Below are positions 17,821-28,501 of a stretch of DNA of 38,644 nt, piece by piece. The stretch lies in IMG/VR virus record IMGVR_UViG_2850756110_000011; one strand, written 5' to 3'. A program made the translations under genes and the position numbers. How positions within the stretch are numbered: position 1 is the stretch's first letter; each line of letters opens with the position of its first letter. The notes under the pieces were generated by a model, which did no database searches, was not told where the DNA came from, and saw only the letters and a list, made by a program, of their open reading frames with translations. Source of the DNA: a virus. Lineage: Duplodnaviria > Heunggongvirae > Uroviricota > Caudoviricetes.

Positions 17821-17927
17821 TTTTTTGCATCTTCAGCGTGTATCTGCACGCTGAAGAAATTCATAAAAACTGCTGCCTATTAATAAATTTTTTTAGCTGA
17901 GTTAAAGAACCTCATTTAGTGATTACG

Positions 17928-18962
17928 TTAAGTAGCTAGTTTATAACTATCAAATTTAACAATGTTATCACTTACCAATTTATTTATTTCCATCATTCTT
18001 TTTTGTAACGGTATTAACTCGTTACGTACAAACACCAGGCTCGCCTTCTCCACATCCCCAAACCCCCCGACATTATTAGGCATAATCCCCATCATTTGCG
18101 GTGGCACACGATGCGCCGCCATCATGTCATCCCGGCTCACGTTCTTGATGTTCAGAAACTCATCCTTCGCCGCGACTTCTGACAACGGGATGATCTGAAG
18201 CCCGTCCTTTTTGCCGTTAGGCGAGTACATAAACAGATTGCGGAAGTTACCTGGTCCTTTGGCGCTTTTCATCGCATTGCGGAGGTTGTTCACATCCTCC
18301 TGGTTTTGCGCGGCATCGGTCATGTACATGATGAAGCCTGCATGACTGCCGTTAATGTAATACTATCGGCGGAACAGCGTGGCGGACTCGTTGAGCAGGG
18401 CTGACGGAATGGCAGAAAGGTAACCTGGCAGGCCGTAGATCTCTTGGTTGATGTCCGGTTCCATCAGATGAAAGATGCTTCCTTTCGTGAACTGATACGG
18501 CTGCGTGGTCATGCCGTATTGCACAAACCAGTAGGTATCCAGGTCTAATCCGCGTCGGGTGTATTTTGCCAGAGCAGGCTCAAGAGCGATGACCTCTCCG
18601 AACCGGTTTGTGCGTTTCTCCAGGTAAGCGTTACCAAATACCAGATAATCCTGCACAAAACGTGAAAAAGCCTGCTGGCTGAGCAGCGGGTGAGGGATGT
18701 AGGTACTGATCAGAATGTTGCATTTCACCGCAATTGGTGAACTGTGATGCACGGCGGCGCGGAAGGTGCGCGCCAGTCCGTCAAAACTCACTGGCGGCTC
18801 ATACCAGCGATCTGTCTGTACGCATTCCACATAGTCCAGTAGTTCACGGCGGTCCAGAACCGGAACGGGATCGCCGAAGCTGAATGCTTCGGCTGAAGTC
18901 TGGTTTTTATGCTGGGTCTGTTTCGTCGCCGCAGCGCGGTTCTTCTTACTCTTTCCCATCAA
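17928..18962 (-). pseudogene. P2 gpQ-like portal protein with an in-frame TAG stop (18363-18365) after codon 199
   Basis: Two ORF calls (18363-18962 and 17928-18329) are in the same frame: ...SATLFRR*YYINGSHAGFIMYMTDAAQNQ... Confidence 0.8.
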
Positions 18963-20725
18963 AAAATCTCCACAATATTGCTGGTATTGGCGGACTCGCC
19001 CTGCAGCGGTTCGTTAAACAGTGCGTGCATTGTTGCCCAGGCCAGATCGGCATGGCTGGCTTCTTCGCTGCGGCTGGCTTCATAGGTCGGGCGGTTGCCG
19101 CTGGCGGTGGTGGCGCGACGGATTGCCATGAATGACTGCGCAATGTCGGTGTGCCCGGCGTCAAACTCAAGACGGCGGTGGCTGATAATGTCGTAGGCCT
19201 TGAGTACCAGGGCGTTTTTAACGTTGGGGTTGTAGACAAACTCCCGGACGGCAGGAAAAAACGCTTTCACGTTCTCGTAAACCCCGTGACCAACGCCGGT
19301 TGAGTCGATGCCGATATAGGTCACGTTGTACTGTTCAGTCAGTTTTTTGATGGCGTAAGCCTGGGCGCGAAAGTCCATTCCGCGCCACTGGTGACGCTCA
19401 AGAATGCGGAACTTACCGCCTGGCACGGCTGGCGGTGCCACCACCACGCATCCGGCGCTGTCGCCGTTCTGCGTACCTTTTGCCGGGTCATAACCGATCC
19501 ACACTTCGCGCCAGCCAAACGGGCGCAGGGCCAGTGCATGAAAGTCGGTCCAGACTTCCCAGCTGTCCACCATGCACGCCTGCAATTCGCTGAGCGGGAA
19601 CACGGACGCGAGATCGTCCACGAACTCGCACATCAGCAGGTTCTGGTATTCGTCAGGGCTGTACTCCATGCGCAACTGGTCAAGGTCGAACAGGTTACAG
19701 GCGCCGCGCACCGCATCTTCCACGGTGACTATCTGGCGGTATTGCCCGTCTGCGCACAGCAGGCCGGGGGCCAGATTGCTGTGGGACAGGTCGATGTCCA
19801 CCTTGTCAGCTTTGTTGCGCCCACGGTTGAACAGCGCACCGGACCAGAACGGATAAGCACTGTGGGTCAGACTGGATGGTGTGGAAAAATAGGTCTGCCG
19901 CCATTTCTTGTGAATAGCCATACCAGAAGCCACTTTGCGTAGCTCCTGAAATTTCGGTATCCAGAAATATTCATCCAGATACAGGTTACCGTGATAACTC
20001 TGGGCAGTGCGGGCATTGGTGCCGAGGAAATACAGTGTGGCCCCGTTGGGAAGCACCATCGGATCGCCTTTCAGCTCCACCTCCACTTCTTTGGCAAAGT
20101 CGATGATGTACTGTTTGAAGACGTGGGCCTGTGCCTTACTGGCAGAAAGGAAAATCTGGTTACGTCCGGTAAGCAGGGCGTCAATCAGGGCTTCACGGGC
20201 AAAATAGAAGGTCGCGCCGATCTGGCGTGACTTCAGCAGGTTGCGGATGCGGTTGGTTTTTCCGGCTTCCCACCAGTGGCGCTGGTAGTTGAACATGGAG
20301 GAATGGAAATTTTTTTCCAGCTTCTCAATCTGGTCATCGGTGAAAACATTCTTTTCAGGCTGACGGCGTGGGCCTTTGTTGCGGTTGGCGACGTTAGGGT
20401 TTAAGTCGGCTTCGTTGCCGCCATTGTTAAACTTGCCGATCCGCGCGTGGCGCTCAGACTGGCGCGCCAGCAGGTCAATATCTTTGAAATCTTTCCCTTC
20501 TTTGTGCTCCTTCATGATGAGCTGGCAGTAGCGTGCGGCGGTGGTGAGCTGCATCTGATCCAGAGGCCCATAGTCACCCCACTTGTCGCGTTTTTTCCAG
20601 CTGTAAACGGTTGCAACTTTCTCGCCCAGCATTTCAGCAATGCGGGCTACGCGGTATCCCTGAAAGTACAGCAGCATGGCCTGCCGACGGGGATCGAGAT
20701 CTGCGGGTGTCAGTGTGGTGTTCAT
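18959..20725 (-). CDS. terminase large (ATPase) subunit, P2 gpP-like
   Basis: 588 aa, P2 gpP-sized; adjacent to and overlapping the portal gene start. Confidence 0.9.
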   Translation of the reverse strand: MNTTLTPADLDPRRQAMLLYFQGYRVARIAEMLGEKVATVYSWKKRDKWGDYGPLDQMQLTTAARYCQLIMKEHKEGKDFKDIDLLARQSERHARIGKFNNGGNEADLNPNVANRNKGPRRQPEKNVFTDDQIEKLEKNFHSSMFNYQRHWWEAGKTNRIRNLLKSRQIGATFYFAREALIDALLTGRNQIFLSASKAQAHVFKQYIIDFAKEVEVELKGDPMVLPNGATLYFLGTNARTAQSYHGNLYLDEYFWIPKFQELRKVASGMAIHKKWRQTYFSTPSSLTHSAYPFWSGALFNRGRNKADKVDIDLSHSNLAPGLLCADGQYRQIVTVEDAVRGACNLFDLDQLRMEYSPDEYQNLLMCEFVDDLASVFPLSELQACMVDSWEVWTDFHALALRPFGWREVWIGYDPAKGTQNGDSAGCVVVAPPAVPGGKFRILERHQWRGMDFRAQAYAIKKLTEQYNVTYIGIDSTGVGHGVYENVKAFFPAVREFVYNPNVKNALVLKAYDIISHRRLEFDAGHTDIAQSFMAIRRATTASGNRPTYEASRSEEASHADLAWATMHALFNEPLQGESANTSNIVEIF

Positions 20726-20771
20726 GGCACAAACCTACAGCCTTGAATGAAGGCTTTCCCCGCCTGCGGTT

Positions 20772-20789
20772 TGTGTGGTTGTCGGTACA
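20772..20789. promoter_or_regulatory. P2-type late promoter activator site (TGT-N12-ACA dyad) in the divergent P/O intergenic region
   Basis: TGTGTGGTTGTCGGTACA read directly; Ogr-family activators recognise TGT-N12-ACA upstream of P2 late promoters (established knowledge). Confidence 0.45.
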
Positions 20790-20867
20790 AATACCGCGCA
20801 TTGTTTCACTGCCCCTATCACCGCAACCATAAGGCTCCAGTAAGTTTTTTCTAACGGAGCACGGCTC

Positions 20868-21701
20868 ATGACAGTGAAAGCAAAGCGTTTTCGCATCGGG
20901 GTGGAAGGTGCCACCACCGACGGACGCGAAATCCAGCGTGAATGGCTGGAACAGATGGCAGCCAGCTATAACCCGGCGGTGTATACCGCGCTGATTAACC
21001 TTGAGCACATCAAGTCTTATCTGCCGGACAGCACCTTTAACCGCTACGGCAAGGTGACGGCGCTGTTTGCTGAAGAAATCACGGAAGGTCCGCTGGCAGG
21101 CAAGATGGCGCTGTATGCTGACGTTGAGCCAACGGAGTCCCTGGTGGAACTGGTGAAAAAAGGCCAGAAATTATTCACCTCTATGGAAGTCAGCCCGAAG
21201 TTCGCTGATACGGGCAAAGCCTACCTGGTCGGCCTGGCTGCCACTGATGACCCTGCCAGTCTGGGCACTGAAATGCTGACATTCAGCGCCAGTGCAGCCC
21301 ATAACCCGCTGGCAAACCGCAAGCAGAATCCCGCCAATCTCTTTACCGCCGCAGAGGAAACGGTGATCGAACTGGAAGAAGTCCAGGACGACAAACCGTC
21401 CCTGTTTGCCCGCGTCACGGCGCTGTTTACCAAAAAAGAGCAGTCCGATGACGCCCGGTTCTCTGATGTGCATAAGGCCGTGGAGCTGGTCGCCACTGAG
21501 CAGCAGAACCTGAGCGCACGCACCGAAAAATCCCTGTCTGAGCAGGAAGAACGCCTGTCTGAGCTGGAGACTGCCCTGCAGGCACAGCAAACCGCCTTTA
21601 ACGAACTGGTGGACAAGCTGAGTCATGAAGACAGCCGCCAGGACTACCGCCAGCGTGCAACAGGCGGTAACGCCCCCGCTGACACTCTGACCAATTGCTG
21701 A
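20868..21701 (+). CDS. capsid scaffolding protein, P2 gpO-like
   Basis: 277 aa; position and size between terminase and major capsid. Confidence 0.85.
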   Translation: MTVKAKRFRIGVEGATTDGREIQREWLEQMAASYNPAVYTALINLEHIKSYLPDSTFNRYGKVTALFAEEITEGPLAGKMALYADVEPTESLVELVKKGQKLFTSMEVSPKFADTGKAYLVGLAATDDPASLGTEMLTFSASAAHNPLANRKQNPANLFTAAEETVIELEEVQDDKPSLFARVTALFTKKEQSDDARFSDVHKAVELVATEQQNLSARTEKSLSEQEERLSELETALQAQQTAFNELVDKLSHEDSRQDYRQRATGGNAPADTLTNC

Positions 21702-26662: not shown

Positions 26663-26938
26663 GTGGCTTCCATTTCCATCAGATGTCCTTCCTGCTCCGC
26701 TATTGAAGGCGTGGTGCGTAACGGCAAAAGCACTGCCGGACATCAGCGCTATCTCTGCTCTCATTGCCGTAAAACATGGCAACTACAGTTCACTTACACC
26801 GCCTCTCAGCCCGGTACGCACCAGAAAATCATTGATATGGCCATGAATGGCGTCGGATGTCGCGCCAGTGCACGCATTATGGGCGTTGGCCTCAACACGG
26901 TTTTACGTCACTTAAAAAACTCAGGCCGCAGTCGGTAA
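26663..26938 (+). CDS. insA: IS1 InsA
   Basis: [40 protein letters not shown]... Confidence 0.9.
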
Positions 26939-27360
26939 CCTCGCGCATACAACCGGGCAGTGATGTGATTGTCTGCGCTGAAATGGACGAACAGTGGGGC
27001 TACGTCGGTGCTAAATCACGTCAGCGCTGGCTGTTTTACGCGTATGACAGGATACGGAGGACGGTTGTGGCGCACGTCTTCGGTGAACGCACTCTGGCCA
27101 CACTGGAGCGTCTTCTGAGCCTGCTGTCGGCCTTTGAGGTCGTGGTATGGATGACGGATGGCTGGCCGCTGTATGAATCACGCCTGAAGGGAAAGCTGCA
27201 CGTTATCAGCAAGCGTTACACTCAGCGCATTGAGCGACATAATCTGAATCTGAGACAACATCTGGCAAGGCTGGGACGGAAGTCACTGTCGTTCTCAAAA
27301 TCGGTGGAGCTGCATGACAAGGTCATCGGGCATTATCTGAACATAAAACACTATCAGTAA
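26937..27360 (+). CDS. insB: IS1 InsB' frame (expressed as InsAB' by -1 frameshift)
   Basis: ...[28 protein letters not shown]...[40 protein letters not shown]. Confidence 0.8.
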
Positions 27361-27370
27361 GTTGGCAGCA

Positions 27371-27907
27371 TTACCATGCAGCCCTCACAATATAGTTAAA
27401 AGCGACATTTCGTGGGCGTGTTTCATTCGCACCTGCAGGTTTAGTCGTTGCCGCAACAACACCACCCTCTGTAATAGCCGGGTTGGGAATTGGGTAATTA
27501 TCGAAGTCAATGGCCGGAGACAGGGGCGTGATTTGTTTTAAAATCGTGGTGCCTGTAAAACTTTCCAGAGTCTGGTCGTTAGTTCGTGAAGTCCAGATTC
27601 CCCAATAGTGGTTATGACTGACAATCGCACCGTCCTGAAGCGTTAATAATCCCCTTCCGTTATCCACTCCACGTCCGTCATCCCAGCCACGAATAAACTC
27701 ACCGCGTAAATCAGGCAATTTATTTGTCGGGTAAGCCTTTGCCAGTTCCGGGTATTCTTCAGCAGAAAAAGCCGCACCATTGCATTTCAGCCAGCCTGTC
27801 GGCGGAGTGGCTGAAGGCCACGGAACAGGCACACCAACAGGTAATGCAGAGCCTTCTCCCAAACCAACGTTTAAGAAAATGCAGAGATAATGGCTAACTG
27901 GCATCAT
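27371..27907 (-). CDS. phage tail-fibre variable C-terminal segment with tail-collar domain; orphan alternative segment of an invertible tail-fibre locus (5' limit arbitrary)
   Basis: ...PVGVPVPWPSATPPTGWLKCNGAAFSAEEYPELAKAY...LPDLRGEFIRGWDDGRG...ETRPRNVAFNYIVRAAW; stop codon partly supplied by the IS1 end. Confidence 0.7.
   Translation of the reverse strand: MMPVSHYLCIFLNVGLGEGSALPVGVPVPWPSATPPTGWLKCNGAAFSAEEYPELAKAYPTNKLPDLRGEFIRGWDDGRGVDNGRGLLTLQDGAIVSHNHYWGIWTSRTNDQTLESFTGTTILKQITPLSPAIDFDNYPIPNPAITEGGVVAATTKPAGANETRPRNVAFNYIVRAAW
27854..27879. other. gix/hix-like recombination site for the adjacent invertase
   Basis: TTCTCCCAAACCAACGTTTAAGAAAA resembles my recollection of the 26-bp gix/hix sites (TTCCTGTAAACCGAGGTTTTGGATAA). 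Confidence 0.5.
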
Positions 27908-27934
27908 CCCCGGTTTTTATTCAGGGGATTGATC

Positions 27935-28501
27935 ATGCTTATTGGCTATGTACGCGTGTCAACAAATGACCAGAACACCGATTTGCAACGTAATGCACTG
28001 AACTGCGCGGGATGTGAGCGGATTTTTGAGGATAAAATCAGTGGCACTAAGCCCGACAGACCGGGGCTTAAAAAACTGCTCAGGACACTATCGGCAGGAG
28101 ACACGCTGGTTGTCTGGAAGCTGGACAGACTGGGACGCAGTATGCGGCATCTTGTTACGCTGATAGAAGAGTTGCGCCAGCGTGGTGTGAATTTCCGAAG
28201 CCTGACTGACAGTATTGATACCAGTACCCCAATGGGCCGTTTCTTTTTTCACGTCATGGGGGCTCTGGCTGAAATGGAACGTGAACTGATAGTTGAACGT
28301 ACCAGAGCAGGGCTGGCTGCAGCTCGTGCCAAAGGCAGAGTAGGTGGACTCCGTCCTAAGTTGACCACCGAACAGTGGGCACAGATTGGACGTTTACTCG
28401 AGGCCGGAGAATCAAGACAGCGTATTGCACTGATTTTTGATGTGGGCGTTTCTACCATTTATAGAAAATTTCCGGCGAATGAGAGCAATGAATCGCCCTG
28501 A
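27935..28501 (+). CDS. serine recombinase, DNA invertase of the Gin/Hin/Pin/Cin family
   Basis: MLIGYVRVSTNDQNTDLQRNAL...RLGRSMRHLVTLIEEL...GVSTIYRKF; catalytic Ser in the YVRVST motif, C-terminal HTH. Confidence 0.9.
   Translation: MLIGYVRVSTNDQNTDLQRNALNCAGCERIFEDKISGTKPDRPGLKKLLRTLSAGDTLVVWKLDRLGRSMRHLVTLIEELRQRGVNFRSLTDSIDTSTPMGRFFFHVMGALAEMERELIVERTRAGLAAARAKGRVGGLRPKLTTEQWAQIGRLLEAGESRQRIALIFDVGVSTIYRKFPANESNESP

What the first reader, a model, noticed from the sequence alone, without database searches (positions are those of the whole stretch)
17821..18010. AT-rich block extends into the 3' end of the portal gene; no recognisable P2 cos
The low-GC character of the cassette continues through a hairpin (CTTCAGCGTG-TATCTG-CACGCTGAAG, 17831-17856) and into the last about 30 codons of the portal gene (...EINKLVSDNIVKFDSYKLAT). 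This suggests the recombination junction that brought in the cargo lies inside the portal 3' end. I could not recognise a P2-type cos site where one is expected.
Basis: seen in the sequence. Interest (0 to 1): 0.4.

Follow-up and report, generated by a model that had tools for sequence, protein, structure and literature searches.

The report
Defence-cassette edge inside prophage portal gene
The AT-rich stretch is the right edge of a swappable anti-phage gene cassette in a decaying P2-like prophage. The cassette carries its own version of the portal gene's last ~38 codons, and the "missing" cos packaging site sits intact at the cassette's other edge, an arrangement known since the 1990s.

Summary
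The 10-bp hairpin is at 17831-17856, low GC (20-28%) runs to about 18010-18020, the portal ends ...EINKLVSDNIVKFDSYKLAT, and no cos lies between the cargo and the portal.

A cos site is present and intact at 15218-15236 (GGCGTGGCGGGGATACGAT). It matches 18/19 to the annotated putative cos of phage SEN8 and 23/26 to the cos annotated in the phage 186 record plus its flank. It lies on the far side of the 2.7-kb cargo, so the order is cos, cargo, portal. This cos-proximal slot is a documented P2-family hotspot.

The recombination junction really is inside the portal gene, at about 18037-18052. Ten E. coli prophages with different cargos are 90-97% identical in the portal body. They fall to 49-76% identity and to low GC over the last ~40 codons. 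Each cargo type has its own homologous tail. In 145 of 145 E. coli records the cargo end and its tail co-occur. P2 and 186, where cos abuts the portal, have GC-normal tails.

The cargo is a Septu-like ATPase + HNH pair (PADLOC candidate PDC-M01). The prophage is a remnant: gene A is cut by an IS66 element, the portal has an amber codon, and baseplate genes are lost. Overall this is ordinary biology with one neat fine-scale detail.

The parts
11160..13529 (+). IS66-family insertion sequence (tnpA, tnpB, tnpC) that truncates the prophage replication gene A
   Evidence: Pfam hits for HTH_Tnp_1, TnpB_IS66 and DDE_Tnp_IS66. Homology to intact gene A starts only at 13528-13530.
13530..14427 (+). Remnant of replication endonuclease gene A (C-terminal 299 aa only)
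   Evidence: tblastn with the A protein of UPEC-245U matches residues 506-804 only, at 99.3%.
14780..15013 (+). DinI-like gene, the last backbone gene before cos
   Evidence: Coordinates transferred from the RefSeq annotation of the 99.7%-identical locus L001.
15143..15174 (+). Stem-loop with T-run (GCTAAGGCCCGCCAG-AA-CTGGCGGGCTTTTGC), a terminator-like site closing the A/DinI transcription unit just left of cos
   Evidence: Inverted repeat I3, retained in relatives. Function is inferred.
15093..15243 (+). Conserved cos block, the only sequence shared by all relatives between two variable cargo slots
   Evidence: Relatives with cargo left of cos match the window from 15089-15095 onward. L019 carries a 2.4-kb insert between 15023 and 15093. 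All relatives diverge 6-8 nt after the 19-mer.
15218..15236 (+). cos cohesive-end 19-mer GGCGTGGCGGGGATACGAT
   Evidence: 18/19 to the 'putative cos site' of phage SEN8, whose record's right end aligns to the window up to 15217. 16/19 to the annotated 186 cohesive end and 23/26 including the flank TGCGCGC. It is the single match in the window, with 0 expected. 14/19 to P2.
15244..15305 (+). Cargo-specific leader; the cassette begins here
   Evidence: Sequences of 13 relatives with other cargos are unrelated from this point. Those with the same cargo (L001, L019, L007) continue to align.
15306..16955 (+). Cargo gene 1: AAA-type ATPase, PDC-M01A / Septu PtuA-like, intact
   Evidence: PADLOC PDC-M01A E=3.2e-55, PtuA E=9.6e-32. 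Pfam AAA_21.
16939..17820 (+). Cargo gene 2: HNH endonuclease, PDC-M01B, intact (RefSeq start corresponds to 16957)
   Evidence: PADLOC PDC-M01B E=1.2e-33. Annotated as HNH endonuclease in L001.
17821..17927 (.). AT-rich intergenic spacer between the convergent cargo and portal genes; cargo-specific
   Evidence: No homology to relatives with other cargos. 45-62% identity even to the Scandinavium copy of the same cassette.
17831..17856 (.). 10-bp stem, 6-nt loop hairpin at the position of the convergent terminator (tQ/tW equivalent); no U-tract on either strand
   Evidence: Two compensatory stem changes and none disruptive in Scandinavium L007. Every other cargo type has a stem-loop in the same gap. 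Not called by the terminator scan.
17928..18045 (-). Cargo-linked portal tail: the last ~38 codons of the portal gene, AT-rich, homologous to other tails but deeply diverged from them
   Evidence: Linkage to the cargo.
18046..18959 (-). Portal gene body (backbone), with a premature amber codon at 18363-18365
   Evidence: 90-97% identical among E. coli relatives. TAG here versus AAG (Lys) in L001 and L019.
18959..20725 (-). Terminase large (ATPase) subunit gene, gpP-like, intact
   Evidence: Pfam Terminase_6N, Terminase_6C and Terminase_5.

Best explanation
The flagged stretch is the right margin of a horizontally exchanged defence cassette. The cassette occupies the cos-proximal slot of a P2-like (Felsduovirus-type) prophage.

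Extent of the cassette:
- It starts 7-8 bp to the right of the cohesive-end sequence, at about 15244.
- It contains the two-gene Septu-like system PDC-M01 and a stem-loop that separates the convergent cargo and portal transcription units.
- It ends inside the portal ORF, about 38 codons before its stop, at about 18040-18050.

cos was not lost. It is the left border of the cassette, at 15218-15236.

How it works (inferred): cassettes move between related prophages by homologous recombination. One crossover falls in the conserved cos block and the other in the conserved portal body. The last ~38 portal codons are too diverged between cassette types to support crossovers, so they travel with the cargo as an old, cargo-linked allele. 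That allele still encodes a functional-looking C-terminus and has drifted to the cargo's low GC, mainly at third codon positions.

Shown here: the position of cos, the breakpoints, the tail-cargo linkage, and one recent exchange tract. Inferred: the recombination pathway, the terminator role of the hairpin, and the reason for the AT-richness.
For: cos:
- The SEN8 record ends at the position aligned to 15217 and starts with its annotated 'putative cos site', which matches the window's 19-mer 18/19.
- 23/26 match to the annotated 186 cos plus flank, unique in the window with 0 expected by chance.
- SEN8, a plaque-forming phage, has 2.2 kb of cargo between cos and portal.

Left border:
- All 16 aligned loci are identical through cos nt 1-18, keep (T/C)GCGCG, then diverge completely according to cargo type.

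Right border:
- Among 10 E. coli prophages with different cargos, mean pairwise nt identity is 0.85-0.98 up to ...GFGDVE. It then falls stepwise from 0.76 to 0.49 while GC falls to 0.23.
- Change-points lie at 18037-18052 in 9 of 11 relatives.
- Tail identity between cargo types is 0.53-0.80, against 0.83-0.97 for the adjacent 300 nt.

Linkage:
- Only the 3 E. coli genomes with this cargo have this tail.
- 18 of 18 DUF262 records and 124 of 124 P-loop NTPase records match cargo end and tail together, including 9 copies that co-diverged to about 82%.
- Scandinavium lactucae carries the same cassette at 80% identity with the same tail type.

Composition:
- Tail GC3 is 0.19-0.42 in cargo-bearing phages, but 0.75 in P2 and 0.86 in 186, where cos abuts the portal.

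Recent exchange tract:
- L019 and L001 differ at 0.3% from about 15200 to 18443, but at 3.9% from 18444 on. They also diverge left of about 15185.

Literature:
- The cos-to-gpQ slot is a recognised insertion hotspot. Dodd & Egan 1996 and Nakayama 1999 are cited for this in PMC5694545.
- The gpA-gpQ cos-adjacent defence hotspot is described in PMC9122126.
Against: - The cohesive ends of this lineage have not been mapped experimentally. SEN8's cos is annotated 'putative', and the 19-mer differs from P2 at 5 positions.
- The tail sample is 12 cargo types plus three linkage searches, not the thousands of known loci, so rare tail-cargo recombinants could exist.
- Homologous recombination explains swaps between P2-like phages. 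It does not explain how a new cargo first enters between cos and a pre-existing tail.
- The uniform AT-richness of all tails is not explained by linkage alone.
- The hairpin lacks a U-tract, so its terminator role is unproven.
Confidence: 0.85

Rival explanations
1. The cargo was inserted precisely downstream of the portal stop. The portal tail became AT-rich and divergent afterwards, in place, through relaxed or diversifying selection, for example in an arms race with portal-sensing defences. On this view no junction lies inside the gene.
For: - The tail is homologous to all other P2-family tails and keeps its length and the motif PLQ[KR]R..E[IL]N.W....[IV][IV].F..Y.L.
- Amino acids between the motif positions vary a lot.
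Against: - The body next to the tail differs by only 5-10% between relatives while the tail differs by 27-56%. The shift is mostly at third codon positions, GC3 0.25 against 0.64.
- The same tail type accompanies the same cargo in E. coli and in Scandinavium, whose backbones differ by about 15%.
- The L019/L001 tract shows the tail and about 500 nt of portal body moving together with the cargo.
Confidence: 0.06
2. The whole cassette, portal tail included, was assembled in P2-like phages of low-GC hosts (for example Morganellaceae or Pasteurellaceae). It entered E. coli phages in a single recombination, so the AT-richness simply reflects the donor's genome composition.
For: - Cargo GC is 0.32-0.41 and tail GC is 0.23-0.39, far below the 0.51-0.56 of the portal body.
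- Distant hits to the portal 3' region include phages of Mannheimia and Arsenophonus.
Against: - Twelve different cargo types each have a different tail, and all are AT-rich. That would need many independent low-GC donors.
- No phage record in the collection carries this tail type; the best match is 67% over 43 aa.
- The more distant relatives of this cargo found here are in high-GC Betaproteobacteria, with no portal next to them.
Confidence: 0.07
3. The pattern is an assembly or sequence artefact: a chimeric join, or a low-quality AT-rich stretch.
For: - The window shows 11 private substitutions in 3.8 kb relative to two close relatives. Five of them, all transversions, cluster in 17876-17967.
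- One further private substitution creates the portal stop codon.
Against: - The same cos, cargo, hairpin, tail and portal arrangement occurs in three independent complete E. coli genomes at 98.6-99.7% identity and in Scandinavium at 80%.
- The architecture is shared by every relative examined.
Confidence: 0.02

Closest known systems
cos-proximal insertion hotspot of P2-family phages, between cos and the portal gene (retrons Ec67/Ec86 in a 186-related prophage, Dodd & Egan 1996; ctx in phiCTX, Nakayama 1999; ORF1-4 of phiRSY1)
   Same: Foreign, low-GC genes sit between the left cohesive end and the gpQ/W-type portal gene. cos is retained at the outer edge and packaging genes are untouched.
   Different: The title of Dodd & Egan places the right junction at a transcription terminator downstream of the portal. 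That paper could not be read here. In this window and in the 13 cargo-bearing relatives examined, the variable block includes its own stem-loop and continues about 38 codons into the portal ORF.
gpA-gpQ 'cos-adjacent' defence hotspot of E. coli P2-like prophages (Rousset et al. 2022, PMC9122126; NAR 2026, PMC13586616)
   Same: Same locus, same kind of content (defence systems), same rapid swapping between near-identical backbones.
   Different: Those studies delimit the hotspot by genes, from gpA to gpQ, and the NAR 2026 paper calls the recombination processes 'still to be elucidated'. At nucleotide level the locus here resolves into two slots that abut a 151-bp cos block. The left slot, the P2 old/tin position, is empty in the window and filled in L019, SEN8 and L029. 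The right slot holds PDC-M01 and overlaps the portal 3' end.
P2 / 186 cos sites (Ziermann & Calendar 1990 55-bp core, as cited in PMC5694545)
   Same: A 19-nt G-rich cohesive-end sequence of the form GGCG(A/T)GGCGGGGA-N5-(C/T), followed by TGCGCGC and preceded by AAGCGGGC and GGTGCAT-AAAACC.
   Different: Positions 14-17 read TACG instead of AAGC. In P2 and 186 a further 167-176 bp of GC-rich DNA and a terminator separate cos from the portal. Here that DNA is replaced by cargo only 7-8 bp after the cohesive end.
Septu (PtuA ATPase + PtuB HNH) and PADLOC candidate system PDC-M01
   Same: A two-gene ATPase + HNH nuclease operon with strong profile matches.
   Different: The best matches are to the candidate family PDC-M01, not to canonical PtuA/PtuB. 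Anti-phage activity of this cassette is not shown here.

Membership tests
P2-family cos site | 19-nt cohesive-end sequence related to GGCGAGGCGGGGAAAGCAC (P2) or GGCGTGGCGGGGAAAGCAT (186) | tested here: met
   15218-15236 GGCGTGGCGGGGATACGAT: 16/19 to 186, 14/19 to P2, 18/19 to SEN8. Unique in the window, with 0 matches in 100 shuffles.
P2-family cos site | Conserved flanks of the ~55-bp core (GGTGCAT.AAAACC ... AAGCGGGC upstream, TGCGCGC downstream) | tested here: met
   Alignment with the P2 and SEN8 junctions and the 186 left end. The block is invariant in 14 relatives.
P2-family cos site | Virion DNA ends map to the site (staggered cut by terminase) | not testable with these tools
   Indirect only: the SEN8 record, a plaque-forming phage, starts at its annotated putative cos 19-mer and ends at the base aligned to 15217.
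P2-like cos-proximal defence hotspot (gpA-gpQ) | Located between replication gene A and portal gene Q, next to cos | tested here: met
   Order: A remnant, DinI, cos, cargo, portal.
P2-like cos-proximal defence hotspot (gpA-gpQ) | Content differs between prophages whose flanks are near-identical | tested here: met
   1299 E. coli records match the flanks and only 3 match the cargo. Relatives carry Ymh, DUF262, RT, SEFIR, ParA/RelA, retron, Abi and other cargos.
P2-like cos-proximal defence hotspot (gpA-gpQ) | Content is an anti-phage system | tested here: inconclusive
   Strong profile matches to the candidate system PDC-M01 and to Septu PtuA. There is no functional assay.
Septu (PtuAB) | PtuA-type ATPase followed by a PtuB-type HNH nuclease in one operon | tested here: inconclusive
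   Gene 1 hits PtuA models (E=1e-31) but hits PDC-M01A better (3e-55). The 25 best hits listed for gene 2 are all PDC-M01B (best 1e-33), with no PtuB among them. Pfam finds no domain in gene 2.
Rho-independent terminator | GC-rich stem-loop immediately followed by a U-tract on the transcribed strand | tested here: not met
   The stem is present (10 bp), but the 3' flanks are AAAUUCAUAAAAA on the + strand and AUGCAAAAAAU on the - strand. The scan does not call it. Its position matches the convergent stem-loops of other cassettes.
P2 gpQ portal protein | Full-length homologue with the conserved C-terminal segment | tested here: not met
   Homologous over its whole length to P2 Q, SEN8 and 813R9 portals, but interrupted by TAG at 18363-18365. 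It is therefore a pseudogene in this window.

The most novel reading that the evidence does not exclude
The cargo-linked portal tail may be more than a passive hitch-hiker. One possibility is that each cassette's own version of the portal C-terminus is co-adapted with its cargo, for example by avoiding self-targeting by a portal-sensing defence, or by tuning convergent transcription and silencing across the AT-rich block. Another is that the razor-sharp left border 7-8 bp from the cohesive end reflects a cos-end-dependent capture mechanism for new cargo. Either would be a concrete mechanism for the hotspot 'factory' whose recombination processes the 2026 NAR study calls unresolved.
Probability: 0.1. 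Interest if true: 0.55.

Novelty: already known. Interest (0 to 1): 0.3.

Why it matters
- It corrects a misreading. This prophage did not lose cos; cos lies on the other side of the cargo, as in other members of the family.
- It gives nucleotide-level borders for a much-studied defence hotspot: a 151-bp cos block on the left and a point about 38 codons inside the portal gene on the right.
- It includes one clear recent exchange tract. That supports homologous recombination in the flanks as the way cassettes swap between P2-like phages.
- Practical consequence: tools that delimit hotspot cargo gene by gene will miss that the portal 3' end belongs to the mobile unit. Portal-based phylogenies should exclude the last ~40 codons.
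- The intact defence genes inside an otherwise decaying prophage fit retention of the cargo by the host.

Tried and rejected
- The P2 19-mer with up to 3 mismatches found nothing. The site differs from P2 at 5 positions and was found by reading 14400-15400 and through the SEN8 record end.
- Rfam at E<=1 over 14900-18300 gave no family.
- The promoter/terminator scan did not call the hairpin and gave promoter-like hits at chance level.
- The repeat finder found no flanking direct or inverted repeats that would indicate a transposon-like cassette.
- Distant homologues of the HNH gene in Betaproteobacteria and others (L008-L018) have the ATPase partner but no portal nearby and no conserved downstream hairpin. 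They say nothing about the junction.
- tblastn of the 43-aa tail against phage records found no phage with this tail type, so no donor was identified.
- Dodd & Egan 1996 is not held in the library, so its junction description is known only from its title and from citing papers.
- An ungapped mismatch count of L001 against L019 was invalidated by a 1-nt indel. The MAFFT-based list was used instead.

Full report
**Observation**

- The inverted repeat CTTCAGCGTG / CACGCTGAAG with a 6-nt loop lies at 17831-17856.
- The 116-nt spacer folds more stably than all 200 shuffles (z = -3.0).
- GC in 60-nt windows is 0.20-0.28 from 17850 to about 18029 and returns to 0.53 or more from 18030 on.
- The minus-strand portal ORF ends ...EINKLVSDNIVKFDSYKLAT, with its stop at 17928-17930.
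- Nothing cos-like lies between the cargo and the portal.

**Context**

The window holds a P2-like prophage of the Felsduovirus type, in a host rich in insertion sequences.
- The locus 13530-21000 is 99.7% identical to a prophage of E. coli UPEC-245U. There it is annotated as replication endonuclease, hypothetical protein, DinI-like protein, AAA ATPase, HNH endonuclease, portal, terminase.
- 1299 E. coli records match the flanks, but only 3 match the cargo.
- Relatives carry quite different genes at the same place: retron, RT, DUF262, SEFIR, ParA/RelA, Abi, Ymh and others.
- The cargo here matches the PADLOC candidate system PDC-M01, with component A at E=3e-55 and component B at E=1e-33. It also matches Septu PtuA more weakly.

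**Where cos is**

The P2 19-mer with up to 3 mismatches gave no hit. Reading the DNA upstream of the cargo showed GGCGTGGCGGGGATACGAT at 15218-15236. Three results identify it as cos.
1. The record of the plaque-forming Salmonella phage SEN8 ends at the base aligned to 15217. It begins with GGCGTGGCGGGGATACGAG, annotated 'putative cos site'.
2. The cohesive end annotated in the phage 186 record plus its flank, GGCGTGGCGGGGAAAGCAT-TGCGCGC, matches 23/26. This is the only match in the window, and no shuffle produced one.
3. The upstream core motifs of P2 (GGTGCAT.AAAACC and AAGCGGGC) are present.

In P2 and 186, cos lies 167-176 bp beyond the portal stop, with a terminator in between. In SEN8 and in this window, 2.2-2.7 kb of cargo lies between cos and the portal. 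So cos is present and sequence-intact, on the other side of the cargo. The cos-to-gpQ position has been described as an insertion hotspot since Dodd & Egan 1996 and Nakayama 1999, as cited in PMC5694545. It is also part of the gpA-gpQ defence hotspot of Rousset et al. 2022.

**Left border**

All 16 aligned loci are identical through cos positions 1-18.
- Position 19 and the next base are dimorphic, either G-C or T-T. T-T is also the 186 state.
- GCGCG follows, and then the sequences become unrelated according to cargo type.
- Relatives that carry extra genes to the left of cos (SEN8_49, two genes in Z1322, one in a Klebsiella phage) share the window's sequence only from 15089-15095 onward.

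The hotspot is therefore two slots abutting a 151-bp cos block (15093-15243). The left slot is the P2 old/tin position and is empty in the window.

**Right border**

I codon-aligned the last 400 nt of the portal from ten E. coli prophages with ten different cargos.
- Mean pairwise nucleotide identity is 0.85-0.98 up to ...GFGDVE.
- It then falls to 0.76, 0.72, 0.70, 0.65, 0.54, 0.52 and 0.49 in successive 6-codon blocks, while GC falls to 0.23.
- Two-rate change-points against the window lie at 18037-18052 in 9 of 11 relatives. Divergence is 27-56% on the tail side and 5-10% on the body side.

At the protein level the tail stays homologous. It keeps the same length and a conserved motif, and it is recognisable in 344 P2-like phage records. 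The composition shift is mostly synonymous.
- Tail GC3 is 0.19-0.42 against 0.60-0.75 for the body in cargo-bearing phages.
- Tail GC3 is 0.75 in P2 and 0.86 in 186, which have no cargo on this side.
- Tails of different cassettes are 53-80% identical, while the adjacent 300 nt are 83-97% identical.

**Linkage of tail and cargo**

- Only the three E. coli genomes with this cargo have this tail at more than 95% identity.
- Queries spanning cargo end plus tail matched both parts in every record that matched at all: 18 of 18 for the DUF262 cassette and 124 of 124 for the P-loop NTPase cassette. The latter include nine copies co-diverged to about 82%.
- Scandinavium lactucae carries the same cassette at 80% nucleotide identity between the same cos and portal. 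It has the same tail type (RMMEINK..NIVKF..YKLA) and the hairpin, with two compensatory stem changes.

**A recent exchange**

Z1322 (L019) and UPEC-245U (L001) carry the same cassette. They differ at 10 sites between about 15200 and 18443 (0.3%), but at 22 sites between 18444 and 19000 (3.9%). They also differ to the left of about 15185. This looks like a roughly 3.3-kb unit, running from the cos core through the cargo and the tail into about 500 nt of portal body, placed on a different backbone. The crossovers would lie in the cos block and in the portal body. It is the signature expected of homologous recombination in the flanks. The pathway itself is inferred.

**The hairpin**

Every cassette examined has a stem-loop in the 19-61 nt gap between its last gene and the portal stop. 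Several of these look like bidirectional terminators. The window's hairpin occupies that position but has no U-tract on either strand, and the scan does not call it. I read it as the transcript-end element between the convergent units, with modest confidence.

**State of the prophage**

- Gene A is truncated at 13530 by an IS66-family element, leaving only its last 299 codons.
- The portal has TAG where both close relatives have AAG.
- An IS1 element and an invertase gene replace most baseplate and fibre genes. Host genes (an Asp-Al_Ex family permease gene and ybjM) follow gpD.
- Both cargo genes are full length.

**Verdict**

The junction inside the portal 3' end is real and is a general property of this hotspot. 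The absence of cos is an artefact of looking where P2 has it. The architecture is already known. The cargo-linked portal tail is a fine-scale detail that I did not find discussed in the two hotspot papers I could search. Why all tails are AT-rich remains unexplained.

Noticed in passing
window 18363-18365 (minus strand codon): In-frame amber codon in the portal gene (...LFRR*YYING). The 99.7%-identical UPEC-245U copy and Z1322 both have AAG (Lys). It is a single window-specific A/T difference, so the portal is a pseudogene here unless this is a sequencing error.
   Followed up: partly
window 17876, 17887, 17900, 17921, 17967: Five of the 11 window-specific substitutions in 15200-19000 cluster in 92 bp of the spacer and portal tail. 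All five are transversions, and 17967 changes E to D in the tail. The cause is unknown; a conversion patch, relaxed constraint or sequence error are all possible.
   Followed up: partly
window 11160-13529 and 13530-14427: An IS66-family element (tnpA/B/C) truncates replication gene A, of which only the C-terminal 299 codons remain. Further IS copies lie upstream: IS110/ISSso6-like at 6448-7575 and 9651-10826, IS3-family at 7777-8595, and another IS66 at 4563-6155. This is an IS-rich, Shigella-like background.
   Followed up: partly
window 26857-28501: An IS1 transposase gene (26857-27360), a tail-collar fragment (27371-27907, minus strand) and a resolvase/invertase gene (27890-28501) sit where the P2 baseplate and fibre genes should be. 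The tail module is largely deleted.
   Followed up: no
window 15023-15093; L019 1303-3072; L004 693-1433; L029 929-1606: There is a second cargo slot immediately left of the cos block, at the P2 old/tin position. It is empty in the window and filled with unrelated genes in Z1322, SEN8 and a Klebsiella phage. The 'gpA-gpQ hotspot' is therefore two slots separated by a 151-bp cos block.
   Followed up: partly
L019 versus L001, window-equivalent 15185-18443: These two loci share a near-identical 3.3-kb tract (0.3% divergence) spanning cos core, cargo, portal tail and about 500 nt of portal body. It is flanked by 3.9% divergence on the right and a diverged left flank. This is an apparent recent cassette transfer between backbones.
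   Followed up: yes
window 18894-18962: The first ~20 codons of the portal, next to the terminase stop, are also highly variable between lineages: MGKSKKNRAAATKQ... versus MSELEALTSTTPTED... in SEN8. In the comparisons with SEN8 and Scandinavium the change-point fell here.
   Followed up: no
window 15306-17820: Both defence-candidate genes (PDC-M01A and PDC-M01B) are full length, although the surrounding prophage has lost replication, portal and baseplate functions. This is consistent with the host retaining the cargo.
   Followed up: partly
window 1-4500: There are remnants of a different, lambdoid-type prophage: a YdaT-like gene, an HTH/CI-like repressor gene, and a Rha/Ash family regulator gene.
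   Followed up: no
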